Program-made: the position numbers and the translations under genes
NCBI GenBank assembly: GCA_964013445.1
Contig: CAXGWX010000001.1
Span: forward strand, 5,055-69,054
Reading direction: 5' to 3'
DNA length: 64,000 nucleotides
Origin: an uncultured Bdellovibrionales bacterium
GTDB lineage: Bacteria > Myxococcota > XYA12-FULL-58-9 > JASMKV01
The notes under the pieces: model-generated
The model's input: the letters and a program-made list of their open reading frames with translations, nothing else
What the model was told of the DNA's origin: nothing
The model's database searches: none
Shown: piece after piece, positions 12,693-41,230 of the stretch
Position numbering within the stretch: position 1 is the stretch's first letter
Layout: every line of letters begins with the position of its first letter

Positions 12693-13592
12693 ATGTTCGA
12701 GCCGCGAAGAAAATATAGCCAACTTATTCTCTGTCTTTTTTGCACTCTGAACTTAGGGGCAGGGCAAGAAAATTCCGAACCAGAGAAAAGCACCAAGGCC
12801 AGCAGAGAAGAGCTACTCGGTGATGATGGCATGAAACTCTTGCAGGAACTTGCTCGAGAGCGGGAAATCAGATCTGAAGATCATAAAGAACAACACTTAT
12901 CCAAAAAGAAAATGCGAGAGCTTTGGGATTATCACGGTGATATTGGTCCCGGACATTGGCATACACTGCACGAGGATTTTATGCTCTGCAACGAAGGCCA
13001 GGCACAGAGTCCAATAGACATCCCTGCCAACACCAACAAAAGCAATCTAAACGTCACTTTTGATTATACCCCAAGCAGCATCGGGTTATTTAACGACGGG
13101 AAGACCGTTTATGTGAACTATTTTGGTAAAGCCAAAATCCTTTTAAAGGGTCGCAAATACAAACTTGTTCGTCTTCTTATGCGCACCCCGAGCGAACACC
13201 ATATTGACGGCAGAGAATACCCAATGGAAATTCAGTTTTACCATCGTTCAGCAGACCAAGGCGTGGCCATGGTCTCCGTATTCGTCCAGCCCGGAGAGAA
13301 AAATCCGCTTCTTGAACAAATCTGGAATGTCATGCCCGAACATCTCAACAGGGAGAATGTTGTTCGAGAGAAAACATTTGATGGGAATAAACTGCTTCCG
13401 GAAGATAGAACCTTTTATTTCTACAGCGGCTCCCTGACAACCCCGCCCTGCACAGAGAATGTGCAGTGGATTATTTTTTCAAATCCAATCCAGGCCAGCC
13501 CTGAGCAGCTTGAAATATTTTCTGCAATACTGAATAATAACATAAGGCCTCTTCAAGAACGCAATAATAGGCCAATACGTATTGACAGTTAA
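12693..13592 (+). CDS. Alpha-class carbonic anhydrase, secreted
   Basis: N-terminal signal-like hydrophobic segment. Alpha-CA hallmarks: SEHHIDGREYPMEIQFYH (zinc-ligand His cluster) and GSLTTPPCTE. Confidence 0.8.
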   Translation: MFEPRRKYSQLILCLFCTLNLGAGQENSEPEKSTKASREELLGDDGMKLLQELAREREIRSEDHKEQHLSKKKMRELWDYHGDIGPGHWHTLHEDFMLCNEGQAQSPIDIPANTNKSNLNVTFDYTPSSIGLFNDGKTVYVNYFGKAKILLKGRKYKLVRLLMRTPSEHHIDGREYPMEIQFYHRSADQGVAMVSVFVQPGEKNPLLEQIWNVMPEHLNRENVVREKTFDGNKLLPEDRTFYFYSGSLTTPPCTENVQWIIFSNPIQASPEQLEIFSAILNNNIRPLQERNNRPIRIDS

Positions 13593-13613
13593 TCTTCAAC
13601 CTTCGAGCAGCTT

Positions 13614-15077
13614 TTGAGCATTAAAAAATCCGTACATCCGAAAAACATGCCCGGCATCCACCCTGGTCTGCAGCAAAAGATCAAAGAGGCGGAAGAGGCG
13701 GAAATCCGCGGAGAGTCCCCCAAACAATATGGAGGAGTGCAAAAGGTAACCCGACCCGCCTTACCGGCAGAAAATATTCATCGTGTCGCCCAGGCACGAA
13801 CCATCGGACTTGTGGAGTCCGCTTATCAAGCCACACAGGACGTACTTCTCGATTTGGCCAAACAAGCCCCCTTTCGGCCCGGGGAAAATCTTGATGATAT
13901 ATGGGACAGTTTAAGTGAAGAACAGAAGGTGCAGGCGGGAGCAACCGAGCGGTTTCGCCTCGAATTTGAAGCAACCATCGCCAGCGCCCTAAAAAATTGG
14001 CAACCACCCCATCAAATTGGTGGCAGACTCGATGCCCGCGCCTTAGGCAGAAGCCAACACAATATTGAAAATCTTATTGATGCCTGCCAATTTTTACTCG
14101 CTCCAGACAGCTCTGAACTTCTTGAGCGGTTCAATCGCGAAAACCATGCCCTTGTCGACACCTGTTTAAAGCAGCGTACCTTGCAAGGTGTTCCTGCGTT
14201 GGAAATGCATATTATTCTTGAGGACTGGGTGAAAAAACTTATCTACCTGGAGCTCGTATCCCGACAAAGGCGCCAGGGGGATCGTGGAATTCGCTACACA
14301 TATGGATTGATTGAACACGGCGAAAAATGCCTCAAGGCCTTTAAAGCCTATCCTGATTTTAGCCCTAAAGAGCTCTTCTGTCTGCGCCTTATTCAGGTCC
14401 ATCAAAATCTGGGCTTTACCGCATATGCGGCAAGAAGCAGCTACAGGGGTGGAAAACTCTATCGAGCCTATGGGGCACGGATATTTACAGACGAAATCAA
14501 CCGCTACCGGCAAGTGCTCACCCATAATGAGGTTGAACTCATACGAAGTGCCATCATCACACAGCGCACCCCGGACTTTCCTTTTCAGGAAGAAAGGGTG
14601 CTCGCCAGCACGCGCCTGGCCTATTTCTTGAGCCCATTTAATCCCCATGCCGTACATCTGCGCATCAGAGATATCAGCGATGCTCTCGATTATCTGCAAG
14701 ACATGCGCGAACGAATAGAAAAAAATGATTTTTCCGGACTCCAGGCCGCTCAAGACTCCTTTGCTCGTTTCCTGCGAGAGGACGCCAATCTAAGCCTGCC
14801 TCTGAGCGAAGATATCATGGCCGCGTTTTTTCCCTATGGCTTATCAAAGGAGCCCCTGCAAAAAACGCTGCTTAAAGGAACCACCAAGGACCTTAGGTTT
14901 GCCGATGGCAATACAAGTCTTACTTTGGAAATTGTTACTAACGAATATCAAGATCAATACGATGCACTCTTTGCCATTGGCCATGAACGCATCGAAGAGG
15001 TGTTGGAAAGTTCTGCCTCAACAAAAGAATCGGAAGCGGATCTTTCCATAAAATGCCTTACCATTAACGTCTCCTAA
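13614..15077 (+). CDS. Hypothetical protein, no recognisable domain
   Basis: 487-aa uninterrupted ORF. The listed start is TTG; the first ATG is at 13647. No motif I can assign. A long antisense ORF (14166..14753) also exists, so this call is cautious. Confidence 0.4.
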   Translation: MSIKKSVHPKNMPGIHPGLQQKIKEAEEAEIRGESPKQYGGVQKVTRPALPAENIHRVAQARTIGLVESAYQATQDVLLDLAKQAPFRPGENLDDIWDSLSEEQKVQAGATERFRLEFEATIASALKNWQPPHQIGGRLDARALGRSQHNIENLIDACQFLLAPDSSELLERFNRENHALVDTCLKQRTLQGVPALEMHIILEDWVKKLIYLELVSRQRRQGDRGIRYTYGLIEHGEKCLKAFKAYPDFSPKELFCLRLIQVHQNLGFTAYAARSSYRGGKLYRAYGARIFTDEINRYRQVLTHNEVELIRSAIITQRTPDFPFQEERVLASTRLAYFLSPFNPHAVHLRIRDISDALDYLQDMRERIEKNDFSGLQAAQDSFARFLREDANLSLPLSEDIMAAFFPYGLSKEPLQKTLLKGTTKDLRFADGNTSLTLEIVTNEYQDQYDALFAIGHERIEEVLESSASTKESEADLSIKCLTINVS

Positions 15078-15145
15078 CCAGAAATTCACACTTTGATTTC
15101 TTCTATCTAATCACATATGCTTGCGGTTTAAGGGTATATATCACC

Positions 15146-16480
15146 ATGAATATAACCATCATAGGTACCGGGTATGTGGGCTTAGTCACAGGCGTCTGTC
15201 TCGCTGAGATGGGGCACCATGTCTGCTGTCATGATATTGATGAAGAAAAGATTAGTGCGCTTGCCGCAGGACAGCCACCAATTTACGAAAGAGGGCTCAG
15301 CGAGCTCCTTAAAAAAAATATCCACAATCAAAAGCTTAGCTTTAATAAAGACATCGGCGAGGCATTAAAAAATTGTGATATTTGTTTTATATGCGTTGGC
15401 ACACCGCCAGATGAAAACGGAAAGCCAAATCTGAGCGCCCTGTTTAGCGCCGTCCATGATATTACGGACAATCTCGAACATCAGTGCATCATAGCAATCA
15501 AATCCACCGTCCCGGTTGGCACTTGCGAACGGGTGTGTCAAACGATGAACAATGCGCTGTCTCAACAGGGAAAGAGTTTTCATATCGACGTTGTTTCGAA
15601 TCCAGAATTCTTGAAAGAAGGGGTTGCGATTGAAGACTTTATGCGACCGGATCGCATTATCGTTGGCGTGGAAAAACAAAGTTCGCTCAAGATAATGCGA
15701 TCGCTCTATCGAGATTTTATCCGTAATGGTCACGCCTTTTTATCCATGTCCCTCCATTCCGCAGAAATGACCAAGTACGCCGCCAATGCAATGCTCGCTA
15801 CCCGCATCTCTTTTATCAACGAAATAGCACGGCTCTGCGAATACACCGGAGCAGATATACGAGATGTCCGCTCTGGAATCGGTTCGGATAAACGCATAGG
15901 TATGAGCTTTCTTTATCCCGGTCTGGGCTACGGAGGCTCCTGCTTTCCTAAGGATGTTCAGGCTCTCATTAGCTTAGGAAAGGAAATGGATGACCCACCG
16001 CAAATATTGAATGCGGCCCATGCGGTAAATGAAAATCAATGGCTCCGGTTTGCCAAAAAGATATCGGAGCATGTAAAAAACTTTTCAAATCCCACCGTAA
16101 GTGTTTGGGGGTTGGCCTTTAAACCTAATACTGACGATATCCGGGAGGCCCCAGCCCTGAAAATTATTGAGCACCTCCTGCAACAAAAAATAACGGTTAA
16201 GGCCTATGACCCCTTGGCTATCACAAATGCCAAGCACGCCTTGCCCGACAACTCCCACCTTAGCTTTAGCCCAAGTGCACTTGAGGCCACACAAGGAGCG
16301 GACGCTCTGGTCATTGCGACCGAGTGGGGAGAATTTCGTAACCCTGATTTTTCAAAACTTAAAGACGGAATGCGACATCAAGTCCTTTTTGACGGCCGCA
16401 ATTTATTTGAACCGGATGAAGTACACGCGCAAGGGTTTGAATACCACTGGATAGGGCAGCATCGTGGCAAAAACGTTTAA
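15146..16480 (+). CDS. ugd: UDP-glucose 6-dehydrogenase family (nucleotide-sugar dehydrogenase)
   Basis: N-terminal Rossmann ITIIGTGYVGLVTGVCLAEMGH and catalytic GGSCFPKD motif. 444 aa. Confidence 0.85.
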   Translation: MNITIIGTGYVGLVTGVCLAEMGHHVCCHDIDEEKISALAAGQPPIYERGLSELLKKNIHNQKLSFNKDIGEALKNCDICFICVGTPPDENGKPNLSALFSAVHDITDNLEHQCIIAIKSTVPVGTCERVCQTMNNALSQQGKSFHIDVVSNPEFLKEGVAIEDFMRPDRIIVGVEKQSSLKIMRSLYRDFIRNGHAFLSMSLHSAEMTKYAANAMLATRISFINEIARLCEYTGADIRDVRSGIGSDKRIGMSFLYPGLGYGGSCFPKDVQALISLGKEMDDPPQILNAAHAVNENQWLRFAKKISEHVKNFSNPTVSVWGLAFKPNTDDIREAPALKIIEHLLQQKITVKAYDPLAITNAKHALPDNSHLSFSPSALEATQGADALVIATEWGEFRNPDFSKLKDGMRHQVLFDGRNLFEPDEVHAQGFEYHWIGQHRGKNV

Positions 16481-17675
16481 AGACATTAACGCGAATATCG
16501 CGATTATTGGTGGCTGTGGGCACGTTGGTCTGCCTTTGGGACTAGCTCTCGCCAACGCAGGGCAAAAGGTTATTGCCTTTGATATCAATGCAGAGAAAGT
16601 AGAGAGTACCAATCAGGGCCGTATGCCTTTTCGAGATCAAGGCGCAGATGAATTGCTTAAAGAAGTGCTCGCACAAGAACGTTTCCTCTGCACTACAGAG
16701 CGAGAGTGTCTCAAAGATGTAGAAGTCATCATTTCCGTTACCGGTACACCAGTGGACGAGCATCTTAATCCGCGCCTTGACGATATTCAACAGGCCCTGC
16801 TTTCCTGTGCGGAGATGTTTAACTCGAAACAGCTCTTGGTTTTACGTTCGACAATTTATCCAGGTACGACAAAGCATATTGAAGAAGAGCTGCAACGCCG
16901 CGGGCTTGCTATGGATGTAGCCTTTTGCCCTGAACGGGTGGCCGAAGGCTATGCGCTCGAAGAAATAAGATCTTTACCGCAAATTGTTTCCGGCTGTAGC
17001 CGGCAAGCTGAAGATCGGGCAGCCAAACTCTTTGCTCTACTCACCCAGGATATTGTTCGGCTGGATCCGCTCTCCGCCGAGCTTGCCAAATTGTTTACAA
17101 ACACTTGGCGCTACGTGCAATTTGCCGTGTCTAACCAGTTTTTCACCATGGCCAATGATTATGGCGCGGATTTTTATGCGATCCACGAGGCTATGACCCA
17201 CAACTATAAGCGAACTCAGGGGTTTCCCACGGCCGGCTTTGCCGCTGGCCCATGCCTCTTAAAAGACACAATGCAATTATCCGCGTTTCATAAAAACAAT
17301 TTTTTTCTTGGGCATGCTGCCATGCTGGTGAACGAAGGCTTGCCGAATTATCTTGTTGGGCGCCTGCAGGAAAAGTTCGACCTTAGCAAGATGTGTGTTG
17401 GCCTCTTGGGAATGACATTTAAAGCGGATAGCGACGACATACGTGATTCCCTGTCTTTTAAACTTCGTCGGCAACTTAGAAACAGCTGCGGCCAGCTTAT
17501 TTGTCATGACCCCTACCTTGATGATGATTGGCTTTCCCCACTCGATGAGGTGCTTGAGCGCTCCGACATACTGGTGGTCGGCGCACCGCATAACGTTTAT
17601 AAAGAACTCGACTGGCCGGACAAGAACATCGTTGATGTATGGAATATCTCGCCAAAAAGGATGAAGATTCTATGA
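16464..17675 (+). CDS. Second nucleotide-sugar dehydrogenase (UDP-glucose/GDP-mannose dehydrogenase family, WecC-like)
   Basis: IAIIGGCGHVGLPLGLALA Rossmann N-terminus. Family-typical length (403 aa). Overlaps the upstream dehydrogenase by 17 nt. Confidence 0.7.
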   Translation: MAKTFKDINANIAIIGGCGHVGLPLGLALANAGQKVIAFDINAEKVESTNQGRMPFRDQGADELLKEVLAQERFLCTTERECLKDVEVIISVTGTPVDEHLNPRLDDIQQALLSCAEMFNSKQLLVLRSTIYPGTTKHIEEELQRRGLAMDVAFCPERVAEGYALEEIRSLPQIVSGCSRQAEDRAAKLFALLTQDIVRLDPLSAELAKLFTNTWRYVQFAVSNQFFTMANDYGADFYAIHEAMTHNYKRTQGFPTAGFAAGPCLLKDTMQLSAFHKNNFFLGHAAMLVNEGLPNYLVGRLQEKFDLSKMCVGLLGMTFKADSDDIRDSLSFKLRRQLRNSCGQLICHDPYLDDDWLSPLDEVLERSDILVVGAPHNVYKELDWPDKNIVDVWNISPKRMKIL

Positions 17676-18691
17676 AAGTTCTTGTCACCGGTGCGGCTGG
17701 ATTTATTGCCGGCTATTTGATTGAGGAGCTTTTAGAGAACAACCATGAGGTTATCGGTCTGGATAACTTTTCAAAATATGGTCAACTGGAAAAGTCCTAC
17801 GATACGAATTCGCAGTACCGCTTCGTTCAAGGAGATGCAAAGGATCCGAAACTTTTAAAAGAGCTCTTGAGCGATTGCGACCATTTTGTCGCCGCCGCCG
17901 CAATGATTGGCGGGATTTCCTATTTTCATGAATATGCCTACGACCTTCTCGCGGAAAACGAACGTATTACCTCCGCTGCCTTCGATGCCGCCATAGATGC
18001 TCATCAAAACAACAGACTGCAAAAGATTACACTCCTTTCATCCTCCATGGTCTTCGAATCAACAGATACCTACCCATCTAAGGAAGGTGATGAGCTAAAA
18101 GTGCCACCGCCCCTTTCAACTTATGGTTTTCAAAAACTGGCCACTGAATATTTTGCACGAGGCGCCTGGCAGCAATATAAGTTACCCTATACAATTGTTC
18201 GCCCCTTTAATTGTGTCGGCATCGGCGAGCGTCGGGCCTTAGGTGATGTTGATATCCGCTCGGGAAATATCAAACTGGCCTTAAGTCATGTTGTTCCCGA
18301 CTTGGTGCAAAAAGTTCTGAAAGGCCAAAACCCACTGCATATTCTTGGGGATGGCTCGCAAATTCGGCACTATACCTATGGTGGTGACTTGGCCCGCGGC
18401 ATTCGCTTATGCATGGAGCACCCAAAAGCCACAAATGAGGATTTTAATATCTCCACGGCCCGCTCCACCACCGTTCAAGAGCTGGCGGAGATCATTTGGA
18501 ACAAGATCAATGGGCAAAAGGAATTCCAACTCATTCACGATGAACCCTTCGCTCATGATGTGCAAAAACGGGTCCCATGCACCCAAAAAGCAAAAGATTT
18601 ACTGGGGTTTGAAGCGACAACATCCCTCGAAGATATTCTCGATGAAGTCATTCCCTGGATACAAGAACAAATTCACTTGGATAACATTTAA
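17672..18691 (+). CDS. NAD-dependent nucleotide-sugar epimerase/dehydratase (SDR family)
   Basis: MKVLVTGAAGFIAGYL glycine-rich start with an AAGGA RBS 11 nt upstream. The listed ORF start at 17639 is probably an upstream extension. YxxxK catalytic pair (YGFQK). Confidence 0.75.
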   Translation: MKVLVTGAAGFIAGYLIEELLENNHEVIGLDNFSKYGQLEKSYDTNSQYRFVQGDAKDPKLLKELLSDCDHFVAAAAMIGGISYFHEYAYDLLAENERITSAAFDAAIDAHQNNRLQKITLLSSSMVFESTDTYPSKEGDELKVPPPLSTYGFQKLATEYFARGAWQQYKLPYTIVRPFNCVGIGERRALGDVDIRSGNIKLALSHVVPDLVQKVLKGQNPLHILGDGSQIRHYTYGGDLARGIRLCMEHPKATNEDFNISTARSTTVQELAEIIWNKINGQKEFQLIHDEPFAHDVQKRVPCTQKAKDLLGFEATTSLEDILDEVIPWIQEQIHLDNI

Positions 18692-18709
18692 ACTCCTGAG
18701 CAAGTATTA

Positions 18710-19909
18710 ATGACTCGAGTACCACTTTTAGATCTCACACGCTTTAGCGACGATGAAGAACTGGAATATATCGAGAAGTTTAGATCCTTTATTCGCTCAG
18801 GCCAATACATCATGGGTCCGGAGGTTGAAAAGCTCGAGGAAGAGTGTGCCACCTATTGCGAAACGAAATATTCTCTTGGTGTATCTTCGGGAACCGATGC
18901 TCTACTCCTGGCCCTTATGGCCCTAGGTGTCGGTGATGGGGATGAGGTAATCTGTCCAAGCTATACTTTTTTTGCCACTGCAGGATGCATCTGGCGCAGT
19001 GGAGCCAAACCGGTTTTTGTAGACTCTTGCTTGTCTGACTACAATATCGACTGCAACAAACTAGAAGACGCCATCACTGAACGGACCAAAGCCATTATTC
19101 CGGTACACCTCTTCGGGCAATGCGCCGACATGGATAGGCTCATGCCGATTGCAGAAAAGCACAATCTCTATGTCATTGAAGATGCAGCCCAAGCCATCGG
19201 CGCAGAAATGCACTATCAAGGTAAAATTCGCAAAGCTGGAAGCGTAGGCCATTTCGGCTGCTTTTCGTTCTTTCCAACAAAAAATCTTGGTGGCTTTGGC
19301 GACGGCGGATTGATTAGCACAAATGATCTGGAGCTATACAATCGAGCCAAAATCATGCGTGTGCATGGAGGGGAACCGAAATATTACCATCAAGTTGTCG
19401 GAGGAAATTTTCGCTTGGACCCTTTGCAGGCTACACTTCTTAGACCGAGGCTCAAAAAACTCGATACATGGACAAAAGCACGCCAAGAAAATGCGTCTCT
19501 CTATAAGACACTGCTACTTAAAACGGGCATTGCTGAAATACTCGAGCCAAATACCACCCTGGAGGAAATCCAAAAAAGTCAAAGCATATTTCTCCCGGTA
19601 GAGACTCAGCCCCGACATATTTACAATCAATTTACCTTACTCCTCCCCAATAAGGCCTGGAGAGATGCATTGCGACAAAAACTAGCGGAAGCGCAAATAG
19701 GGTGCGAAATTTATTACCCGGTGCCCCTGCACAAACAGGAGTGCTTCGCTTCTCTTGCAAGCTCTTCCACATCATTGCCCATGGCTGAATTTGCCGCCGA
19801 TCGAAGTTGCGCCATACCGATCTTCCCCGATCTGCGCGAGGAAGAAATACTCTATGTTGTAGAAAACATTAAAAATGCATTTTTAGGAATAAAAAGCAGA
19901 GGACAATAA
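18710..19909 (+). CDS. DegT/DnrJ/EryC1/StrS-family PLP-dependent sugar aminotransferase
   Basis: GPEVEKLEEE...SLGVSSGTDAL N-terminal pattern and a lysine-containing FSFFPTKNLG PLP-site motif. Confidence 0.8.
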   Translation: MTRVPLLDLTRFSDDEELEYIEKFRSFIRSGQYIMGPEVEKLEEECATYCETKYSLGVSSGTDALLLALMALGVGDGDEVICPSYTFFATAGCIWRSGAKPVFVDSCLSDYNIDCNKLEDAITERTKAIIPVHLFGQCADMDRLMPIAEKHNLYVIEDAAQAIGAEMHYQGKIRKAGSVGHFGCFSFFPTKNLGGFGDGGLISTNDLELYNRAKIMRVHGGEPKYYHQVVGGNFRLDPLQATLLRPRLKKLDTWTKARQENASLYKTLLLKTGIAEILEPNTTLEEIQKSQSIFLPVETQPRHIYNQFTLLLPNKAWRDALRQKLAEAQIGCEIYYPVPLHKQECFASLASSSTSLPMAEFAADRSCAIPIFPDLREEEILYVVENIKNAFLGIKSRGQ

Positions 19910-19931
19910 AAGGCCGCCTGCGTAGCAAAGC

Positions 19932-20798: not shown

Positions 20799-20826
20799 AT
20801 AATCCTAAGGCTTGAAATTAATCTTC

Positions 20827-21813
20827 TTAAAGAAATCTTGCTATCGGTTTGTAGCTCTTACCAATTACTCTTGCAAGGTTCTGCCAAAAGATCCTTTGGA
20901 TTTCAAAGTAATTCGCCTGCCTTAAAGAGTGGGAGAATGCCCCAAAAAGACTCCTCTCACACCATCCCCATTTACCCCGCAAAACCAGATCTGTCTCCGC
21001 CAAGGTATCAGAACCCGTCTTTTCCAGGGAAAAACTCAATAAATAGTCGAGAAAACGATAACAACGCTGCATGCGCCAAAGCACATAGCGAACCGGTCCT
21101 AAATACTGTGTATCACAGAGGGTTTCATCAAGCACCCAGGCATAGGACCGCTTCATACGCAGAACGTCTTCTGACATATTTCTTCCTGTCCATCGATTAT
21201 GCACAACGATCTCATTTTGGCATTCTATCTGAAAGCCTCTGATGGCCAAACGCAGCCAAAAATCCCAATCTTCACACCCGTAAATAGAAAAAAGACTACT
21301 GCTCGATTCTTTAAATCCACCGACCTCATTCAGCACTTCGCGTTTTATCAATGCGGCATTAATCAGAATAAAATTTCGAACCAAGAGCGTTGAGAGCAAG
21401 GTCCCTTCAGGAAGCGGATACTCCACCTCAACCTCTTGATTATTCTTAAAATAGCGCCCCAGGCCATAAGTCGCTGCCACATTTTTGTTTCCCTGCATAA
21501 AAGAGACTTGGTTTTGCAACTTCTCCGGTAACAACTTGTCATCCGCATCAAGAAACTGAACCAAAGATCCAGTGGTTGCGCTTAGCCCTACATTGCGTGC
21601 TGCGGATAGGCCTAGCTGCTGCTGATTGACAAAAAATATTTGTGGAAAACGCTCAGAATAGGATTCTATAATTTCACCAGTTCGGTCGCTAGAACCATCA
21701 TTAACAATACAAAGTTCCCAATTTGAAAAAGTTTGCGCGAGGACAGAATCAATCGCCTCAGCAATCGTACTCTCTTCATTGTGGGCTGTTATAATAACCG
21801 AAACGTCAGGCAT
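20827..21813 (-). CDS. Glycosyltransferase family 2
   Basis: VSVIITAHNEE...DSVLAQT...IVNDGSSD...DADD GT-A motifs. Confidence 0.75.
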   Translation of the reverse strand: MPDVSVIITAHNEESTIAEAIDSVLAQTFSNWELCIVNDGSSDRTGEIIESYSERFPQIFFVNQQQLGLSAARNVGLSATTGSLVQFLDADDKLLPEKLQNQVSFMQGNKNVAATYGLGRYFKNNQEVEVEYPLPEGTLLSTLLVRNFILINAALIKREVLNEVGGFKESSSSLFSIYGCEDWDFWLRLAIRGFQIECQNEIVVHNRWTGRNMSEDVLRMKRSYAWVLDETLCDTQYLGPVRYVLWRMQRCYRFLDYLLSFSLEKTGSDTLAETDLVLRGKWGWCERSLFGAFSHSLRQANYFEIQRIFWQNLARVIGKSYKPIARFL

Positions 21814-21827
21814 AGCTATTGTGGAAT

Positions 21828-22607
21828 TCAGCTTGCTTGTTTTTTTTGCATGGAGACATGTTCTTTGTAGCGCTTAATCACTTCATCTGTCGGGCCATCC
21901 GCAACAATCTGCCCCTTATCCATAAAAATAACGCGTTCGCAGTATTCAGCAATCAACGGCAAACTATGTGAAACCATGATAACCGTAACCCCTTTGTCGA
22001 ATATTTCCTGCATCCGAACCTGGCACTTTAATTTAAATGATTCGTCACCGACAGCAAATATTTCATCCAAGAGAAGTATTTCAGGCTCTATATCCGCAGC
22101 AACAGAAAATCCTAGCCTGGTGCGCATTCCTGAAGAATAGTTTCTGATTGGAATATCAATATGCTCCTCAAGCTCAGCAAAATCCACAATTCGGTCAAAT
22201 CGCTCCTGCATATTTTGACGGGAAAGTCCCATGATTGCACCATTTAAGAAGATATTTTCACGGCCTGTTAACTCCGCATTAAAACCTGCGCCTAACTCGA
22301 TCAATGGGGTAACCATCCCGTGAACAGAAATGTTTCCTTCTCGGGCCGGAAGTACAGAGGCGATTGCTTTTAGCAGTGTGCTTTTTCCACAACCATTTGC
22401 GCCAATGAGGCCCAAATGCTCACCACGTCGAACATTTAAATCCAGGTTGCGTAAAGCCCAAAACTCTTTGAATTTAGAGCCTGAGAAAAGATTTACAACA
22501 AAATCCTTTAAAGTCACTGTCTTTTCACGATACTGGCGATAACAAATACCCAAATTACTTGCTTCTATAATATGCTCTTCGCCACTATGTTCATTCACTT
22601 TAAGCAT
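21828..22607 (-). CDS. ABC transporter ATP-binding protein for glycan export (Wzt/TagH/KpsT-like); no C-terminal carbohydrate-binding module
   Basis: Walker A GANGCGKSTLLK, LSGGM signature and Walker B LLLDE. Start taken at the ATG overlapping the wzm stop (ATGCTTAA junction). The listed ORF extends to 22628. Confidence 0.8.
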   Translation of the reverse strand: MLKVNEHSGEEHIIEASNLGICYRQYREKTVTLKDFVVNLFSGSKFKEFWALRNLDLNVRRGEHLGLIGANGCGKSTLLKAIASVLPAREGNISVHGMVTPLIELGAGFNAELTGRENIFLNGAIMGLSRQNMQERFDRIVDFAELEEHIDIPIRNYSSGMRTRLGFSVAADIEPEILLLDEIFAVGDESFKLKCQVRMQEIFDKGVTVIMVSHSLPLIAEYCERVIFMDKGQIVADGPTDEVIKRYKEHVSMQKKQAS

Positions 22608-23376: not shown

Positions 23377-23502
23377 AACATCCTATACTCTATGCTTTGT
23401 TGCGATAAGTAACTTTACATTAATCAATTTCAACCATAAAAGCCATTACGCAATACTTATAATAAGTGAGAAATACAAGCATTTAAGGAGATCCGGTTCA
23501 CA

Positions 23503-25695: not shown

Positions 25696-25882
25696 AGGCG
25701 TATTTGTAATACTTGCGTGACATACTTTTAATCTAGCCCCGTATTACTCCAACGCTTCTTACTCAATTGGTTGGAGCATGAGTAACAATGAATATAAAAC
25801 CTGCATCCACCACTCAAGAAAGCCAACAAGTCTAGCCCAAGTCTCTCGTCAACAGGATCGCACTCTTCTGAATGACTCCGGC

Positions 25883-29497: not shown

Positions 29498-30031
29498 GCC
29501 TAAACACCTATAAAATGAGGAATTACCTCGAATAATAAAAATCGCTATATAGTTAGTATTGCCCAGATATGTCAATCAACCCATTAGTGAATTAACACCG
29601 CAAAGGGGTAAAAATTAGGCGCATAAGCCATATCAGTTCGCATTAATCACTCACTTGCGTCATCACATATTGCTGTCTTTCTGCAAACATTTGCTGCAAG
29701 CACTACGGCGCTCTGCTTAACCAAAAACAAATCGCATCCATGTCCATAAATCTTCAAGTATCTTCACAAGTTAAGATTAAGACGACAAACAATGTTAATC
29801 TAATTTACCTGCACTTGAGTGAAGGAAACTCCCTAGCATATCATAGAAGCTTAAAAATTTATAAAGTATAGAAAGTTTTCCGTAAGTAAGGTATCGTTTC
29901 GCCTGAATTACAAAAACATCCTCTGGAATTCATCGATGAATTTGCAAAACAGCTTGCACCGTTTCAGATTGATGCCATATGCACAAAACGCCCAGATTTA
30001 TGGAATAAAAGTTTTTCTAAGCAATAGCTGC

Positions 30032-31350: not shown

Positions 31351-31353
31351 TGC

Positions 31354-32253: not shown

Positions 32254-32262
32254 ATAAATCCC

Positions 32263-33198: not shown

Positions 33199-33199
33199 T

Positions 33200-33979: not shown

Positions 33980-34089
33980 AAACTGGGAAATAGTTCAAAT
34001 CGGAACCTAGGACTACATTGATTCAGCATAAGAATCAACAACAAGGGCTGCTTATTCCTGCTCAATAAACCAGTTTAAGAGCTTGTTAT

Positions 34090-34773: not shown

Positions 34774-35763
34774 TTATTCATCCTTGTTCAACCCCAAAAT
34801 TAATCGCTTGTGGAGCTTTATATTATACATAGCGATAAAGGTCACTAAGCAAAGACCAATGGTATACCCCATCCACGCTATCTTGTTTTCTAATATGAAA
34901 ATCATTGGATTCATCAATAAAATAACAGATATGACATCCTGTTCACGAATTCTTCTTTTCCTTAAAAACAAAAAGACAAAACCAAGCAGTAAAGAAAGAA
35001 AAATATTTAATGAAGTATTGGAAAAGCTCAGATTAACCAAGAGAAGTAATAGCGCTGTTGATATACAAAGCAGGGTTGGCATTAACCCATAGAGATACCA
35101 TTTTAAATAAAACGGGAGCCATTTAAATAATTGGAATTTAGTTTCACCGTGCTGCCTTTCCTCCCACTGGCTTGGGACTTCACTAACGGAAAAACCAAGG
35201 CGAAATGCCTTTACTGTAAGTTCAAGACCGATCTCAAAACCATGAAGACTTTCAACTTTTATGTGTTCAAAGAGTTCACGTTTATAGGCACGGAAATTGT
35301 TCGTCACATCACGAGTCGAAATTCCTGTAAGAAGATTAAGTGTAAGCCCTGCGAGCATCGACAACTTTTCCTTTAAAAATGGGGCTCCAGTAATACTGCC
35401 ACCAGGTATGTATCTCGAGGCACTCACAACCCAAGCACCCTTTTGAATCTTCTCAACCATCTTGGGTATAATTTCAGGAGGGTCAGAGAGATCCGCCATC
35501 GTTGTCACAATAATATCACCACGTGCATCTTCGATGCCGGATTTAATGGCTTTTGCGGCCCCACGACCGTAGGCATTTTTAACCAAACGCATTGTTGGGT
35601 ATTTATCCTTCACTTTTTCAAGTATAGGTAAGGTCGTATCTTCATCAAAATCATAACAAACAAGTATCTCGTGCTCATCGTTTTTAAGCACGCCATACAA
35701 CCTTTGTAGGCATTCTAAAATCGATTCTGATTCATTATAGACGGGTAAGACAATCGTGAGCAT
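34774..35763 (-). CDS. GT2 polyprenyl-phosphate glycosyltransferase (GtrB/DPM1-like) with C-terminal transmembrane helices
   Basis: LTIVLPVYNESESI...DEDTT...ADLSD GT-A motifs followed by two strongly hydrophobic C-terminal segments. Confidence 0.7.
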   Translation of the reverse strand: MLTIVLPVYNESESILECLQRLYGVLKNDEHEILVCYDFDEDTTLPILEKVKDKYPTMRLVKNAYGRGAAKAIKSGIEDARGDIIVTTMADLSDPPEIIPKMVEKIQKGAWVVSASRYIPGGSITGAPFLKEKLSMLAGLTLNLLTGISTRDVTNNFRAYKRELFEHIKVESLHGFEIGLELTVKAFRLGFSVSEVPSQWEERQHGETKFQLFKWLPFYLKWYLYGLMPTLLCISTALLLLLVNLSFSNTSLNIFLSLLLGFVFLFLRKRRIREQDVISVILLMNPMIFILENKIAWMGYTIGLCLVTFIAMYNIKLHKRLILGLNKDE

Positions 35764-35769
35764 GTCGTT

Positions 35770-36669
35770 TTAAAGTGTTGTTCGCTTTTGAAATCGTTTT
35801 TTAACCATTTTCCTGATATTTAAACGTTCTGCAGCTAATTTTAAGATGTGGGGTTGCTGTGACACAACGCGCAGAACTCGTGCTGCCTCCCAGGGAACAG
35901 CTGTCCAGCAATACTTAAGAAAGCTCATGGCTGATTCATTTTTTAACCATAAATAATAACGATTAATAAACGACTGTGCATAAATTCCTGGCGGCTTGCT
36001 TTCTGGACCTCTGCGCTTATGAAAAGCCTTAACTTCTGGTGTATACAGATGTTTCCATCCTTTGTTGGTCAATCGCCAAGCAAGATCCACATCTTCATAA
36101 TAGGCAAAAAAATCTTCATCAAAAAATTCTGGTCCGACATCTTCAAGAGCCTTTCTTCGGTAAAGAGCTGCCGTTGCCGAGGGTCCAAAAATAAAACCCT
36201 CTGTATTGTATTGACCTAAATCTTCTTCCTCAAAGCCCTTATCCAGTGGTCTCAGTGCATAAGCACAAAGATCAATACCCACAGAATCTATGAATTGCCT
36301 GCCGTTCTTTTCGTAAACAAGTTTTCCCGTAGCTGAAGCTAACTCTGAACATGTTTCCATTTTCTTTAGGATGACCGAAAGATAATCATTAGAAATTTTA
36401 GCATCATCATTTAAACAAAGAATATACGGTGATTCAGATTGCTTAAAACCCATGTTCATAGCTACAGAGAAACCATAGTTTTTATTCAACTTAATTAACT
36501 CCACAGAGCTGAAATCACGTTCAATAATATTACAGGTTTGATCCTGAGAGTGGTTATCTATAACTATAATTTTTTCAGGATTATTTGCCGAAGCAGCACT
36601 TAAACAACGCTCAATCCAGGACTCACTGTTCCAGGTTACGACGATAACTGTGACGGGGAGAGCACTCAC
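35770..36669 (-). CDS. Glycosyltransferase family 2
   Basis: VTVIVVTWNSESWIERCL...VIDNHSQD...LNDDA GT-A motifs. Confidence 0.7.
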   Translation of the reverse strand: MSALPVTVIVVTWNSESWIERCLSAASANNPEKIIVIDNHSQDQTCNIIERDFSSVELIKLNKNYGFSVAMNMGFKQSESPYILCLNDDAKISNDYLSVILKKMETCSELASATGKLVYEKNGRQFIDSVGIDLCAYALRPLDKGFEEEDLGQYNTEGFIFGPSATAALYRRKALEDVGPEFFDEDFFAYYEDVDLAWRLTNKGWKHLYTPEVKAFHKRRGPESKPPGIYAQSFINRYYLWLKNESAMSFLKYCWTAVPWEAARVLRVVSQQPHILKLAAERLNIRKMVKKRFQKRTTL

Positions 36670-37691
36670 TTTGCACCTGTACGTTGAGCATACATTCTTT
36701 GATAGTAATCTTTGTACGCCCCATTCTTAATATTTGCCCACCACTCCTTGTTATCCCTGTACCAATCGACCACTTCAACAAGTCGTTCTTCAATAGAAGG
36801 TCCTGCTCTAAATCCAAGCTTATCTTTCGCTTTAAAGGGTTCAATAGCGTAACGTCTGTCGTGAGCTAAGCGGTCTTCCACCGGCTGTATAAGCTCTTTT
36901 CCTACACCTGTGACCTCACAAATGGCCAACGCTATATCCTTATTGGCCCGTTCGCATTCACCGCCCAAGTTATAAACTTCTCCGTTCACGCCTTTTTCAA
37001 AAGCAAGTTTTAAACCAAAGGAATGCTCATCAACATAAATCCAGTCTCTAACATTTTTGCCATCACCATAGAGTGGGAGCGGTTTATTCTCTAATGCATT
37101 AGTAATGAAGAGAGGAATAAACTTTTCAGGAAACTGATAAGGCCCGTAATTATTAGAGCAGCGGGTAACAATAGTATTCAGACCATAAGTTTTATGAGCT
37201 GCCAAAACCAATAAGTCAGAAGATGTTTTAGAGGCCGCATAAGGCGAGGTTGGCTCAAGAGCAGATTCCTCACTAAAACGCTTCTGGTCTTCAAGTTCCA
37301 GCGAGCCATAAACCTCATCAGTTGAAACGTGCATAAAGCGCCCAACCTTATGCTTTCGAGCTGCATCAATAAGATTCTGTGTTCCTACCACATTCGTTTC
37401 AACAAAAGGGAGTGCGCTTTCAATAGAGCGATCTACATGGGATTCAGCAGCAAAATGAAAGATGGCATCTGCACCATCTCTTAAGGCTTTATCGACATCA
37501 TCAGCGCGAATGATATTACCATGGATAAAAGTAAAACCTGGGTGTTCAAAGACGGGCTTTAGGTTCTCCATGTTTCCAGCGTAGGTGAGCGCATCGAGAA
37601 CAATAATTTCATCACACCACTCTTCAAGCAGAGCCCGCCTGACAAAATTAGAACCTATAAACCCCGCTCCACCTGTAACAACCCAACGCAT
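36666..37691 (-). CDS. rfbB: dTDP-glucose 4,6-dehydratase RmlB
   Basis: MRWVVTGGAGFIGSNFVRR N-terminus, catalytic YAASK, and 341 aa length. Confidence 0.85.
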   Translation of the reverse strand: MRWVVTGGAGFIGSNFVRRALLEEWCDEIIVLDALTYAGNMENLKPVFEHPGFTFIHGNIIRADDVDKALRDGADAIFHFAAESHVDRSIESALPFVETNVVGTQNLIDAARKHKVGRFMHVSTDEVYGSLELEDQKRFSEESALEPTSPYAASKTSSDLLVLAAHKTYGLNTIVTRCSNNYGPYQFPEKFIPLFITNALENKPLPLYGDGKNVRDWIYVDEHSFGLKLAFEKGVNGEVYNLGGECERANKDIALAICEVTGVGKELIQPVEDRLAHDRRYAIEPFKAKDKLGFRAGPSIEERLVEVVDWYRDNKEWWANIKNGAYKDYYQRMYAQRTGAK

Positions 37692-37723
37692 GATACAATT
37701 ATTCTATCTCAAAAATATAAATA

Positions 37724-38830
37724 TTATTCGTTTGAAGTAAGTGAGGCGGTTTCATCTTCCAGATTGCCCGCACCCCACATTTTATCACGGCTTGTGCGTG
37801 CTTCTTCTTTATTGGCGCGTTTCTCAGCTTGCAGCTCAACAAGGTGATGGTGTGTCGTAAAATAAGGAAGACTCTTACCGACAATATCCTGAACCGAATC
37901 AAATCCATGATCGTCCATAAACTTAGATAAGCCTTCCATAAGTGGAGTTACCATTTTCATGCCATAAATCATCGCACCGGTACAAACCTGAACCGTATTT
38001 GCACCAACCAGAAGAAACTCAATAGCATCTTCGGCTGTCACAACCCCGCCAATCCCAGAAATATCAAATTTTGGTATTTCTACGGCAATTTCCTTAACCG
38101 CACGCAGCCCAATAGGCTTTACCGCCGGTGCGGAATAACCACCTGGGGTGGAGTGTCCCTCAACCGTTGGAAGCGGCCTAAGGGTCTTAAGATCGATTCC
38201 AATCACCGCCAACACCGTATTGATGGCACTGACTCCATGGGCACCGCCAGCCTGAGCCCCTTTTGCAGGCTTTACGATATCCGTAATGTTGGGTGTCATC
38301 TTTGACCAAACCGGCACATCGACGGCTTCAACAACCCAGCGCGTGACTTCTTCAACCTGGGCAGGATCTTGCCCCATAGCGGCCCCCATGCCCGTTTCAG
38401 GGTGTCCATGTGGGCAGGAGAAGTTAAGTTCCAAAGCATCACATCCGGCGGCCACACAGCGTTGTGCAACCTCTTGCCAGCGTTCTTTTTCATAAGACTC
38501 CATGATCGAGCCAATCAGAATCTTGTCCGGATACTCATTTTTTACGATTTTAAATTCTTCTTCCCATTGCTCAAAAGGAAGATCGGAAATCAGCTCTATA
38601 TTTTGAAATCCATAGACTTCACCGCCTTTAGCACGGAGTTTTCCGTAACGAGGCATAACATTAACAACTTCCGTGTCCGTTAAGCTTGTTGTCTTAGCAA
38701 CAACACCACCCCAGCCGGCCTTAAAGGCCTTACAAATAACGCGAGCATTTGTTCCAGGAGGTCCACTGCCAATAACAAATGGATTATCAAATTTAAGGCC
38801 TGAAACTTCGATGCTTAGATCTCTTGCCAT
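37724..38830 (-). CDS. Dihydroorotate/dihydropyrimidine dehydrogenase-family flavoprotein (PreA-like), no Fe-S partner domain
   Basis: FDNPFVIGSGPP and NFSCPHG catalytic-cysteine motif typical of the DHOD/DPD TIM-barrel family. The C-terminal about 45 aa are low complexity. Confidence 0.65.
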   Translation of the reverse strand: MARDLSIEVSGLKFDNPFVIGSGPPGTNARVICKAFKAGWGGVVAKTTSLTDTEVVNVMPRYGKLRAKGGEVYGFQNIELISDLPFEQWEEEFKIVKNEYPDKILIGSIMESYEKERWQEVAQRCVAAGCDALELNFSCPHGHPETGMGAAMGQDPAQVEEVTRWVVEAVDVPVWSKMTPNITDIVKPAKGAQAGGAHGVSAINTVLAVIGIDLKTLRPLPTVEGHSTPGGYSAPAVKPIGLRAVKEIAVEIPKFDISGIGGVVTAEDAIEFLLVGANTVQVCTGAMIYGMKMVTPLMEGLSKFMDDHGFDSVQDIVGKSLPYFTTHHHLVELQAEKRANKEEARTSRDKMWGAGNLEDETASLTSNE

Positions 38831-40005: not shown

Positions 40006-40022
40006 AAGGCTTAAAAAGCCAA

Positions 40023-41135: not shown

Positions 41136-41230
41136 TGCGTATCCTTAGCTAATGAAAAAGTAGCTAGGGGTTTGCGCTGCTTTTGTCAACCCTTAGATAA
41201 GCCGGTTGAAATTGGCTCAAGGCTCTCTAT

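What the first reader, a model, noticed from the sequence alone, without database searches (positions are those of the whole stretch)
12693..38830. A roughly 26 kb glycan-biosynthesis island splits the canonical origin gene block (mnmE … recF/dnaN/dnaA)
Seen in sequence: mnmE-mnmG-rsmG-parA-parB (7.0-12.5 kb) are separated from recF-dnaN-dnaA and rpmH-rnpA-yidD-yidC-jag (38.9-47 kb) by 22 glycan-related genes. In most bacteria jag is immediately followed by mnmE. Parts of the island (for example 26-29 kb and 34-36.6 kb) are visibly AT-richer, around 30-40% GC by eye, than flanking housekeeping genes such as mnmG (around 55-60%). Inference: an origin-proximal position gives the highest gene dosage in growing cells. 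The block may have been acquired or rearranged as a unit. Several internal modules (ugd + second dehydrogenase + epimerase + DegT aminotransferase; rmlA/rmlB without rmlC/rmlD) suggest amino or uronic and dTDP-4-amino-6-deoxy sugars.
Basis: partly seen in the sequence, partly recalled or inferred. Interest (0 to 1): 0.55.

Follow-up and report, generated by a model that had tools for sequence, protein, structure and literature searches.

The report
Resident glycan locus beside replication origin
The 26-kb stretch next to the replication origin of this marine Myxococcota genome is an ordinary cell-surface polysaccharide gene cluster that close relatives also carry at both of its ends, and its odd position reflects an old chromosome rearrangement rather than a freshly inserted island.

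Summary
parB-parA-rsmG-mnmG-mnmE lie at 7.0-12.5 kb, recF-dnaN-dnaA at 38.9-42.9 kb and rpmH-rnpA-yidD-yidC-jag at 43.4-47.0 kb. Twenty-two ORFs lie between mnmE and recF.

The reading "an island splits jag|mnmE" is topologically wrong. The run jag-unk481-lspA-lgt-bactofilin is intact, as in outgroups. The mnmE-parB block instead sits on the dnaA/recF replichore, and gyrB is missing after recF.

Three of the 22 genes have no glycan-family signature: an alpha-carbonic anhydrase, an orphan 487-aa protein and a PreA/DHODH-like enzyme.

Composition splits the interval. The left 8 kb matches the flanks (GC3 0.47). Only 20.8-37.7 kb is AT-richer (GC3 0.37). The core genes recF and dnaN are lower still (0.32, 0.27), and relatives show the same trough.

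Every relative recovered (about 70-91% protein identity) keeps both junctions: mnmE<>CA-unk-ugd-dh-epimerase and recF-preA-rmlB-GT2. I found no tRNA, integrase, transposase or flanking repeats. Independent TARA assemblies reproduce the structure.

Functionally it is a Wzm/Wzt (ABC-transporter-dependent) polysaccharide locus with a methyltransferase-GT2-coiled-coil enzyme, rmlA/rmlB plus an aminotransferase, and a CMP-sugar module.

Verdict: a new member of a known kind, of low interest.

The parts
7000..12546 (-). parB-parA-rsmG-mnmG-mnmE block. It lies on the dnaA/recF replichore and is co-oriented with replication. parS sites lie at 9310-9325 (perfect) and 11175-11190 (1 mismatch).
   Evidence: NCBIfam equivalogs MnmE, MnmG, RsmG and ParB/ParA families; parS search
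12693..13592 (+). Alpha-type carbonic anhydrase, divergent from mnmE. Not glycan-related. Conserved at this junction in relatives (66-77% identity).
   Evidence: Pfam PF00194 E=6.5e-40; L002 and L006
13614..15077 (+). Orphan 487-aa soluble protein. It has no family and few homologues, and is conserved next to the carbonic anhydrase in relative L002 (72%).
   Evidence: No Pfam, NCBIfam or PDB hit; only 11 representative clusters at E<1e-30 among 1.84 billion; the AF2 model is unusable, pLDDT 38.7
15146..19909 (+). Nucleotide-sugar modification module: UDP-glucose 6-dehydrogenase (15146-16480), second NDP-sugar dehydrogenase (16464-17675), SDR epimerase/dehydratase (17639-18691) and DegT-family aminotransferase (18710-19909). 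Native-like GC3 of 0.45-0.50.
   Evidence: Pfam and NCBIfam; GC3; the first three are conserved at 71-81% in L002
19932..20798 (-). rmlA (glucose-1-phosphate thymidylyltransferase RfbA)
   Evidence: TIGR01207, 470 bits against a cut-off of 360.65
20827..25695 (.). GT2 glycosyltransferase (20827-21813, -), Wzt ABC ATPase without a C-terminal carbohydrate-binding extension (21828-22628, -), Wzm ABC-2 permease (22600-23376, -), and a 730-aa GT2-plus-unknown-domain protein (23503-25695, +)
   Evidence: Pfam and NCBIfam
25883..29575 (-). Large multidomain enzyme. The likely true start is the ATG at 29497, giving 1204 aa. Domains: FkbM methyltransferase (aa 51-209), unannotated region, GT2 (aa 708-911), then a C-terminal 14-residue-period coiled coil. 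Candidate chain terminator/polymerase with a coiled-coil ruler.
   Evidence: Pfam; tandem DNA repeat at 26003-26212; protein sequence; 1204-aa gene call in GCA_002720515.1; comparison with PMC11231755
30032..34773 (-). CMP-sugar module: HAD phosphatase, cyclase-family metal hydrolase, SDR, D-2-hydroxyacid dehydrogenase, HpcH/HpaI class II pyruvate aldolase, and a NeuA/PseF-like cytidylyltransferase
   Evidence: Pfam and NCBIfam; PDB sequence hits; the cytidylyltransferase is 58% identical to one on a Sulfitobacter plasmid
34774..37691 (-). GT2b (ArnC/GtrB-like polyprenyl-phosphate glycosyltransferase, 34774-35763), GT2c (35770-36669) and rmlB (dTDP-glucose 4,6-dehydratase, 36666-37691). rmlB and the start of GT2c are conserved after recF-preA in relatives.
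   Evidence: L001, L040 and L044
37724..38830 (-). PreA/dihydroorotate-dehydrogenase-family flavoenzyme. Not glycan-related. It is 94-96% identical in relatives and always lies directly after recF.
   Evidence: NCBIfam NF006183 E=1e-123; Pfam DHO_dh
38899..42941 (-). recF-dnaN-dnaA, with no gyrB after recF. oriC DnaA-box clusters lie in the dnaA-dnaN spacer (41274-41445) and upstream of dnaA (43001-43032).
43435..50312 (.). rpmH (43435-43584), rnpA, yidD (43920-44177), yidC, jag, metallophosphoesterase-like unk481, lspA, lgt (all +), then bactofilin (49848-50312, -). This run is intact as in outgroups. The right-hand breakpoint lies after bactofilin.
   Evidence: outgroups L007-L010 and L039

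Best explanation
The interval 12.7-38.8 kb is a long-resident, mosaic cell-surface polysaccharide locus of a marine Myxococcota lineage. The window is 99.9% identical to TARA MAG GCA_002720515.1. It is not a unitary, recently inserted island.

How it got there. In the common ancestor of the window genome and its sampled relatives, chromosome rearrangement broke two ancestral linkages, recF|gyrB and bactofilin|mnmE. This placed the mnmE-mnmG-rsmG-parA-parB block on the dnaA-dnaN-recF replichore, with the polysaccharide genes between. The most likely event is an inversion spanning oriC plus at least one further event (inferred). Since then both junctions have been inherited vertically.

How it works (inferred from families).
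- RmlA and RmlB make dTDP-4-keto-6-deoxyglucose, and the DegT enzyme can aminate it.
- Ugd and a second dehydrogenase make uronic acids.
- An aldolase/dehydrogenase/phosphatase/cytidylyltransferase set makes a CMP-activated acidic sugar.
- Several GT2 enzymes build the chain on the cytoplasmic face.
- The methyltransferase-GT2-coiled-coil protein caps the chain and sets its length.
- Wzm/Wzt exports the finished chain.

Composition. The AT-rich centre is the usual compositional signature of such loci, whose genes are exchanged piecemeal. Here it merges with a lineage-wide AT-rich trough that also covers dnaN and recF.
For: Shown:
- Gene identities.
- Four independent outgroup lineages (MnmE 49-51% identical) carry rpmH-rnpA-yidD-yidC-jag-unk-lspA-lgt-bactofilin-(1-3 genes)-mnmE-mnmG-rsmG-parA-parB-rSAM on one arm. 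On a single 120-kb contig, one of them carries dnaA-dnaN-recF-gyrB on the other arm.
- Relatives with MnmE 70-91% and RecF 74-75% identity keep mnmE<>CA-unk487-ugd-dh2-epimerase (L002, L006). They also keep recF-preA-rmlB-GT2c (L001, L040, L041, L044). Identities of the island-edge genes (66-96%) fall in the same range as the adjacent core genes (60-90%).
- The left module's GC3 equals that of the flanks. Low GC3 is confined to 20.8-37.7 kb but continues into recF/dnaN. The same GC3 profile (dnaN 0.23-0.29, recF 0.26-0.29, rmlB 0.30-0.36, GT2c 0.28) is present in relatives.
- GC-skew polarity is uniformly that of the left replichore across the island and the mnmE block.
- There are no tRNA genes and no boundary repeats. 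None of the 22 ORFs of at least 200 aa gave an integrase or transposase family hit.
- Independent assemblies reproduce the whole structure: the NCBI MAG contig and TARA scaffolds of 41.7 and 7.6 kb from other samples.
- Wzm/Wzt, multiple GT2s and an MT-GT2-coiled-coil protein match the organisation described for ABC-transporter-dependent O-polysaccharide assembly (PMC11231755; PMC3482155).
Against: - The central 17 kb (DegT to GT2b) could not be seen in any relative, because all their contigs end inside the interval. Conservation of the core is therefore unproven.
- The core has a weaker tetranucleotide match to the flanks (r 0.62-0.74 against 0.80-0.92).
- Its cytidylyltransferase is 58% identical to one on an alphaproteobacterial plasmid. 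Some core genes probably did arrive horizontally.
- The inversion scenario is inferred from end states only. A single inversion does not explain the loss of the recF-gyrB linkage.
- No initiating phosphoglycosyltransferase, ligase or outer-membrane export component lies in the locus, so the glycan class (O-antigen, capsule or other) is unknown.
Confidence: 0.7

Rival explanations
1. Only the AT-rich core (about 20.8-37.7 kb: GT2a, wzt/wzm, the large GTs, the CMP-sugar module, GT2b/c, rmlB) is of foreign origin. It was acquired, or repeatedly replaced by recombination, between conserved anchors (ugd/DegT/rmlA on one side, preA/recF on the other), as at O-antigen loci of enterobacteria. This overlaps the best explanation and differs only in how much of the core is recent.
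For: - GC3 is 0.370 against 0.470 for the flanks (p=6e-7), and the tetranucleotide match is lower.
- The cytidylyltransferase is 58% identical to a gene on Sulfitobacter plasmid p4SUD7, next to a related 2-hydroxyacid dehydrogenase.
- The best database relatives of the 1230-aa enzyme are only 35-50% identical and come from Cyanobacteria, Alpha- and Gammaproteobacteria and Desulfobacterota.
- Contigs of all relatives end inside the interval.
Against: - The right edge of the core (rmlB, GT2c) is conserved, with the same low GC3, in three relative lineages. That part at least predates their divergence.
- dnaN and recF are even more AT-rich, so low GC is not specific to foreign DNA here.
- The search also failed to return the protein's own database entry, so its negative result is unreliable.
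- Contig ends fall at different positions and in low-coverage contigs, so they are uninformative.
Confidence: 0.3
2. The whole 26 kb is one horizontally acquired genomic island that inserted recently into the origin gene block.
For: The interval is bounded by housekeeping genes that are close together in many bacteria. Its centre is AT-richer.
Against: - Both junctions are shared by relatives down to about 70% protein identity.
- The left 8 kb is compositionally native.
- There is no integrase, transposase, tRNA or flanking repeat.
- Removing the interval would not restore the ancestral order, because it would join mnmE to recF, an arrangement seen in no outgroup.
Confidence: 0.05
3. The origin-proximal position is selected because it raises gene dosage of the polysaccharide genes in fast-growing cells.
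For: The locus lies 2-29 kb from the DnaA-box cluster. The position is stable across relatives.
Against: - There is no direct evidence.
- The organisms are uncultured marine MAG populations, and nothing is known of multifork replication in them.
- Six of the genes (12.7-19.9 kb) are head-on to replication, which is not expected of a layout optimised for high expression.
- Stability is equally explained by inheritance.
Confidence: 0.1
4. The juxtaposition is an assembly or binning artefact of a MAG contig.
For: The source is a metagenome-assembled genome.
Against: - The NCBI MAG contig, a 41.7-kb TARA scaffold from another sample (seen in 3 samples) and a 7.6-kb TARA scaffold all show the same order at 99.9-100% identity. 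Together they cover rsmG through lspA.
- Relatives independently assembled from JGI, ENA and Arabian Sea data show both junctions.
Confidence: 0.02

Closest known systems
ABC-transporter-dependent O-polysaccharide assembly loci (E. coli O9a/Klebsiella O3 WbdA-WbdD; Klebsiella O7 ORF6; Klebsiella O12 WbbB)
   Same: - Wzm/Wzt transporter genes, no Wzx/Wzy, and several GT2 modules.
[quoted passage not shown]
- rml genes in the locus, and a CMP-sugar supply module. CMP-Kdo is the terminator donor in O4 and O12 (PMC11231755; PMC3482155).
   Different: - The coiled coil is C-terminal, after the GT2 module, rather than between the terminator and polymerase modules.
- Wzt is short (266 aa) and lacks the carbohydrate-binding extension that reads the terminal cap.
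- The methyltransferase is FkbM-type.
- There is no recognisable kinase domain.
- None of this was tested biochemically.
Conserved oriC neighbourhood (rpmH-rnpA-yidC-jag-mnmE-mnmG-rsmG-parA-parB diverging from dnaA-dnaN-recF-gyrB), as in Bacillus subtilis and many other bacteria (own knowledge) and in the Myxococcota outgroups found here
   Same: All these genes except gyrB are present within 35 kb of oriC. The internal order of each sub-block is kept.
   Different: - The mnmE-parB block lies on the dnaA side, 26 kb beyond recF.
- gyrB is absent from the window.
- Even in outgroups of this phylum, jag and mnmE are separated by unk-lspA-lgt-bactofilin and 1-3 further genes.
Low-GC O-antigen/capsule loci held between conserved flanking genes (for example galF-gnd in E. 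coli; own knowledge)
   Same: An AT-richer, GT-rich centre lies between conserved, compositionally native sugar-nucleotide genes and housekeeping anchors, with no mobility genes.
   Different: - Variability of the centre among relatives could not be demonstrated here.
- The AT-rich zone continues into dnaN and recF.

Membership tests
Horizontally acquired genomic island | Integrase, transposase or other mobility gene at or near a boundary | tested here: not met
   Pfam and NCBIfam scans of all 22 ORFs found none. The 457-bp gap at 29575-30032 was read and holds no ORF of note.
Horizontally acquired genomic island | Insertion at a tRNA/tmRNA gene or flanking direct repeats | tested here: not met
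   No tRNA or tmRNA in the 64 kb. No direct-repeat pair at the boundaries; only chance-sized repeats of 16-29 nt.
Horizontally acquired genomic island | Composition differs from the host across the island and returns to the host value at its edges | tested here: not met
   The left 8 kb equals the flanks (GC3 0.470 against 0.470). The core is lower (0.370). recF and dnaN outside the island are lower still (0.32, 0.27).
Horizontally acquired genomic island | Absent from close relatives at an otherwise conserved site | tested here: not met
   Both junctions are present in L001, L002, L006, L040, L041 and L044. The centre was not observable in any relative.
ABC-transporter-dependent polysaccharide assembly locus | Wzm (ABC-2 permease) and Wzt (ATPase) pair in the locus | tested here: met
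   PF01061 and PF00005. The best NCBIfam models are galactan/teichoic-acid export Wzm/Wzt, below the equivalog cut-offs.
ABC-transporter-dependent polysaccharide assembly locus | No Wzx flippase or Wzy polymerase; chain built by cytoplasmic glycosyltransferases | tested here: met
   No Wzx or Wzy family hit among the 22 ORFs. Six GT2-domain proteins are present.
ABC-transporter-dependent polysaccharide assembly locus | Terminator enzyme carrying a coiled-coil molecular ruler | tested here: inconclusive
   The FkbM methyltransferase + GT2 protein has a 14-residue-period C-terminal repeat. Coiled-coil formation and terminator activity are inferred only. The domain order differs from WbdD, ORF6-O7 and WbbB.
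ABC-transporter-dependent polysaccharide assembly locus | Wzt C-terminal carbohydrate-binding module that recognises the cap (in terminator-coupled systems) | tested here: not met
   Wzt is 266 aa, and the ABC domain covers aa 59-191 with no extra domain.
dTDP-L-rhamnose pathway (rmlABCD) | RmlA and RmlB present | tested here: met
   TIGR01207, 470 bits (cut-off 360.65). TIGR01181, 417 bits (cut-off 365.1).
dTDP-L-rhamnose pathway (rmlABCD) | RmlC (3,5-epimerase) and RmlD (4-reductase) present | tested here: not met
   No ORF in the island reaches the rmlC or rmlD models; the best rmlD score is 46 bits against a cut-off of 224. The rest of the genome could not be searched.
Canonical oriC gene neighbourhood | recF followed by gyrB; mnmE block on the rpmH/jag arm | tested here: not met
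   recF is followed by the preA-like gene. The window holds no gyrB. mnmE lies on the dnaA arm. Outgroups meet both features.

The most novel reading that the evidence does not exclude
The six-gene module at 30.0-34.8 kb makes and CMP-activates a non-canonical acidic or 3-deoxy-2-ulosonic sugar. The module comprises a HAD phosphatase, a cyclase-family hydrolase, an SDR, a D-2-hydroxyacid dehydrogenase, an HpcH/HpaI class II pyruvate aldolase and a NeuA/PseF-like cytidylyltransferase. It would use a class II pyruvate aldolase in place of a NeuB/KdsA-type synthase. The sugar would serve, like Kdo in Klebsiella O4 and O12, as the chain-terminating cap of the ABC-exported glycan. This would be a new biosynthetic route shared with roseobacter plasmid glycan cassettes.
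Probability: 0.12. Interest if true: 0.5.

Novelty: new member of a known kind. Interest (0 to 1): 0.2.

Why it matters
Little hinges on it. It documents that in one marine Myxococcota lineage the near-universal origin neighbourhood has been rearranged: the mnmE-parABS block moved to the dnaA arm and gyrB was unlinked from recF. A typical ABC-transporter-type polysaccharide locus occupies the gap stably.

It is a useful caution that low GC next to an origin is not evidence of foreign DNA, because here dnaN and recF are the most AT-rich genes.

The only points with some follow-up value are the unusual CMP-sugar module and the unexplained, lineage-wide AT-rich trough from dnaN into the glycan genes.

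Tried and rejected
1. Looking for the island's centre in relatives. The one genome-contig scan (recF query) and the one metagenome scan (rmlB query) gave relatives whose contigs all end in rmlB or GT2c. The mnmE-side contigs end at the epimerase or the carbonic anhydrase. Contig ends fall at different positions and in low-coverage contigs, so I do not read them as evidence of variability.

2. Homologue search with the 1230-aa enzyme. Only hits of 35-50% identity from other phyla were returned. The protein's own 1204-aa entry in GCA_002720515.1 was also not returned, so the absence of close relatives is not trustworthy.

3. Mobile-element origin. blastn of 21-29 kb against 72,556 plasmids gave no match. 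For 29-37 kb only a 133-bp cytidylyltransferase motif matched.

4. The orphan 487-aa protein.
- Pfam, NCBIfam and PDB searches gave nothing.
- The exhaustive representative search found only a small family.
- Pfam on remote multidomain hits was uninformative.
- The single-sequence AlphaFold model had pLDDT 38.7, so no fold search was run.

5. Codon-usage distance to the flanks does not separate island genes from flank genes. Only GC3 and tetranucleotide composition do.

6. A single origin-spanning inversion as the complete history was considered. It explains the mnmE block's arm and strand, but not the loss of recF-gyrB. I therefore offer it only as part of a multi-step history.

7. Literature searches for an HpcH-aldolase plus cytidylyltransferase glycan pathway, and for origin gene-order papers, gave nothing specific.

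Full report
**What is in the window**

- parB (7000-7881), parA (7898-8671), rsmG (8696-9310), mnmG (9338-11206) and mnmE (11191-12546) lie on the minus strand.
- recF (38899-40026), dnaN (40023-41135) and dnaA (41538-42941) also lie on the minus strand.
- On the plus strand are rpmH (43435-43584), rnpA (43588-43953), yidD (43920-44177), yidC (44193-45929) and jag (45946-46953). They are followed by a metallophosphoesterase-like 481-aa protein, lspA and lgt. A bactofilin gene follows on the minus strand (49848-50312).
- GC skew changes sign at about 40.8-41.4 kb.
- DnaA-box-like sites are enriched overall: 40 found against 13.9 expected. They cluster in the dnaA-dnaN spacer (six at 41274-41445) and upstream of dnaA (three at 43001-43032).

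The interval is therefore origin-proximal.

The window is 99.94% identical over 21 kb to contig PBIT01000001.1 of GCA_002720515.1, a TARA 'Myxococcales bacterium' MAG. Other TARA scaffolds (41.7 kb and 7.6 kb, from other samples) carry the same order. Misassembly is therefore excluded.

**The 22 ORFs**

By family:

| Coordinates | Assignment |
|---|---|
| 12693-13592 | Alpha-carbonic anhydrase |
| 13614-15077 | Orphan 487-aa soluble protein |
| 15146-16480 | UDP-glucose 6-dehydrogenase |
| 16464-17675 | Second NDP-sugar dehydrogenase |
| 17639-18691 | SDR epimerase/dehydratase |
| 18710-19909 | DegT aminotransferase |
| 19932-20798 | rmlA (passes its equivalog cut-off) |
| 20827-21813 | GT2 |
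| 21828-22628 | Wzt |
| 22600-23376 | Wzm |
| 23503-25695 | 730-aa GT2 protein |
| 25883-29575 | 1230-aa (probably 1204-aa) protein |
| 30032-34773 | HAD phosphatase, cyclase-family hydrolase, SDR, D-2-hydroxyacid dehydrogenase, HpcH/HpaI aldolase, NeuA/PseF-like cytidylyltransferase |
| 34774-35763 | ArnC/GtrB-like GT2 |
| 35770-36669 | Another GT2 |
| 36666-37691 | rmlB (passes its cut-off) |
| 37724-38830 | PreA/dihydroorotate-dehydrogenase-family enzyme |

The 1230-aa protein has an FkbM methyltransferase domain, an unannotated region and a GT2 domain. It also has a C-terminal 14-residue-period repeat that reads as a coiled coil (DNA repeat, protein).

So '22 glycan genes' overstates the case. 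At least three genes have no glycan signature. No rmlC or rmlD is present in the window.

**Composition**

Per-gene GC3:

| Region | GC3 |
|---|---|
| 27 flank genes | 0.470 (sd 0.043) |
| 7 genes at 12.7-20.8 kb | 0.470 (MWU p=0.86 against flanks) |
| 14 genes at 20.8-37.7 kb | 0.370 (p=6e-7 against flanks) |
| preA-like gene | 0.404 |
| recF | 0.319 |
| dnaN | 0.272 |

- GC-normalised tetranucleotide profiles of 4-kb windows correlate with the flanks at r 0.87-0.88 for 12-20 kb, 0.62-0.83 for 20-40 kb and 0.80-0.92 elsewhere. The flank windows contributed to the reference, so this contrast is somewhat inflated.
- Synonymous-codon distance does not separate the groups.
- The GC decline is gradual on the left (rmlA 0.45, GT2a 0.43, wzt 0.38) and does not end at recF.
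- In relatives the same trough exists: dnaN 0.23-0.29, recF 0.26-0.29, rmlB 0.30-0.36 and GT2c 0.28, against 0.39-0.42 for neighbouring genes. An outgroup shows no such trough.

Low GC here is a shared, old, regional feature that includes core replication genes. It does not mark an insertion.

**Synteny**

Outgroups:
- Four independent outgroup lineages (MnmE 49-51% identical; L007, a JGI contig, L008, L009/L010) carry, on one arm, rpmH-rnpA-yidD-yidC-jag-unk-lspA-lgt. These are followed by bactofilin on the opposite strand, 1-3 variable genes, and then mnmE-mnmG-rsmG-parA-parB-rSAM.
- The 120-kb contig that holds L009 also holds dnaA-dnaN-recF-gyrB-fabH on the other arm (L039).

The window:
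- The run jag-unk481-lspA-lgt-bactofilin is intact. It is followed by folB, a ribD-like gene, recA, ppiA, DUF1015, lon, clpX, clpP and tig.
- recF is followed by the preA-like gene, and the window holds no gyrB.
- The mnmE block lies 26 kb beyond recF, on the same strand as recF.

Deleting the 26 kb would therefore not recreate the ancestral order. The lineage differs from outgroups by two breakpoints, recF|gyrB and bactofilin|mnmE, and the mnmE block has changed replichore while staying co-directional with replication.

An inversion spanning oriC produces exactly that outcome and preserves GC-skew polarity, which is uniformly negative from 1 to 41 kb. It does not explain the missing gyrB, so at least one more event is needed. 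This history is inferred, not shown.

**Relatives**

- L002 (JGI; MnmE 70%, MnmG 81%) keeps parA-rsmG-mnmG-mnmE, then divergently carbonic anhydrase (66%), unk487 (72%), ugd (71%), dh2 (77%) and epimerase (81%).
- L006 (MnmE 91%) keeps the start of the carbonic anhydrase gene (77%).
- L001 (Arabian Sea MAG), L040/L041 (ENA) and L044 (same JGI sample as L002) keep dnaA-dnaN-recF-preA (94-96%)-rmlB (80-86%)-GT2c (74%). Their RecF is 74-75% identical and their DnaN 88-90%.

Island-edge genes thus diverge in step with their core neighbours, as expected for vertical inheritance since the common ancestor.

All relatives' contigs end inside the interval, so the central 17 kb was not observed in any relative.

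**Mobility and foreign origin**

- There is no tRNA or tmRNA, no boundary direct repeats, and no integrase or transposase family hit among the 22 ORFs of at least 200 aa.
- The centre finds nothing in 72,556 plasmids, apart from a 133-bp match within the cytidylyltransferase gene.
- That cytidylyltransferase is nevertheless 58% identical at protein level to one on Sulfitobacter sp. D7 plasmid p4SUD7. There it also sits beside a 2-hydroxyacid-dehydrogenase-like gene (33%), a GalE-type SDR and an MptE-like protein.
- The best database relatives of the 1230-aa enzyme are 35-50% identical and come from several phyla. That search also missed the protein's own entry, so it is weak evidence.

Piecemeal horizontal exchange of core genes, normal for such loci, is therefore likely. 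Acquisition of the whole interval as a unit is not.

**How it probably works (inference from families)**

- RmlA and RmlB give dTDP-4-keto-6-deoxyglucose. The DegT enzyme could aminate it; its best model is dTDP-4-amino-4,6-dideoxygalactose transaminase, below the cut-off. Alternatively DegT could act with Ugd and the SDR on a UDP-uronate-derived keto sugar.
- The aldolase/dehydrogenase/SDR/hydrolase/phosphatase/cytidylyltransferase set would supply a CMP-activated acidic sugar. PDB relatives are HpaI/YfaU/GarL at 1e-39 and NeuA at 1e-15.
- GT2 enzymes polymerise the chain on a lipid carrier.
- The methyltransferase-GT2-coiled-coil protein resembles the terminator/polymerase proteins with coiled-coil rulers described for E. 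coli O9a WbdD and Klebsiella O7 ORF6 and O12 WbbB (PMC3482155; PMC11231755).
- Wzm/Wzt exports the product.

Differences from those prototypes: the coiled coil is C-terminal, Wzt lacks a cap-binding module, and no kinase domain is recognisable. The locus holds no initiating transferase, ligase or outer-membrane exporter.

**Verdict**

The feature is a resident, mosaic, ABC-transporter-type polysaccharide locus lying between two old rearrangement breakpoints next to oriC. It is a new member of a known kind and of low interest (0.2).

The most novel reading still open is a new aldolase-based route to a CMP-ulosonic-type capping sugar (probability about 0.12).

Noticed in passing
window 38899-41135 (recF, dnaN); L001, L040, L044: dnaN (GC3 0.27) and recF (0.32) are the most AT-rich genes in the window. 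The same trough is present in three relative lineages but not in an outgroup. The cause is unknown: low-expression codon drift, a regional mutational effect next to oriC, or something functional.
   Followed up: partly
window 9310-9325 and 11175-11190: A perfect parS (TGTTTCACGTGAAACA) lies in the rsmG-mnmG spacer, and a one-mismatch copy lies at the mnmE/mnmG junction. The expected count is 0.24 per window. The partition sites therefore sit about 30-32 kb from the DnaA-box cluster, on the dnaA arm.
   Followed up: partly
window 55478-61348: tig-clpP-clpX-lon lie on the minus strand of the right replichore, head-on to replication. Local GC skew is about zero, unlike the positive skew on either side. 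This suggests a further, possibly more recent, local inversion.
   Followed up: no
window 30032-34773: A CMP-sugar module is built around an HpcH/HpaI class II pyruvate aldolase rather than a NeuB/KdsA-type synthase. Its cytidylyltransferase is 58% identical to one in a glycan cassette on Sulfitobacter sp. D7 plasmid p4SUD7 (L047).
   Followed up: partly
window 25883-26300 (C-terminus of the 1230-aa protein): In-frame 42/84-nt tandem DNA repeats encode 14-residue repeats (…AISRRDGVINEKNEAL…), i.e. an extended coiled coil followed by a short basic tail. Repeat number could tune the length of a molecular ruler.
   Followed up: partly
window 3701-6514: An HpnN-like RND transporter gene lies between parB and the TIGR03960 radical-SAM gene. 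These two genes are adjacent in outgroups L007 and L008.
   Followed up: no
window 13614-15077: An orphan 487-aa helical protein is conserved beside the carbonic anhydrase in relatives. It belongs to a very small family: 11 representative clusters at E<1e-30 among 1.84 billion. Weak matches fall within large multidomain proteins of unknown function.
   Followed up: partly
window 37724-38830: The PreA/DHODH-like gene directly after recF is 94-96% identical in relatives whose RecF is only 74-75% identical. It is far more constrained than its neighbours. At 368 aa it is shorter than the 422-position PreA model and matches only positions 2-329 of it.
   Followed up: no
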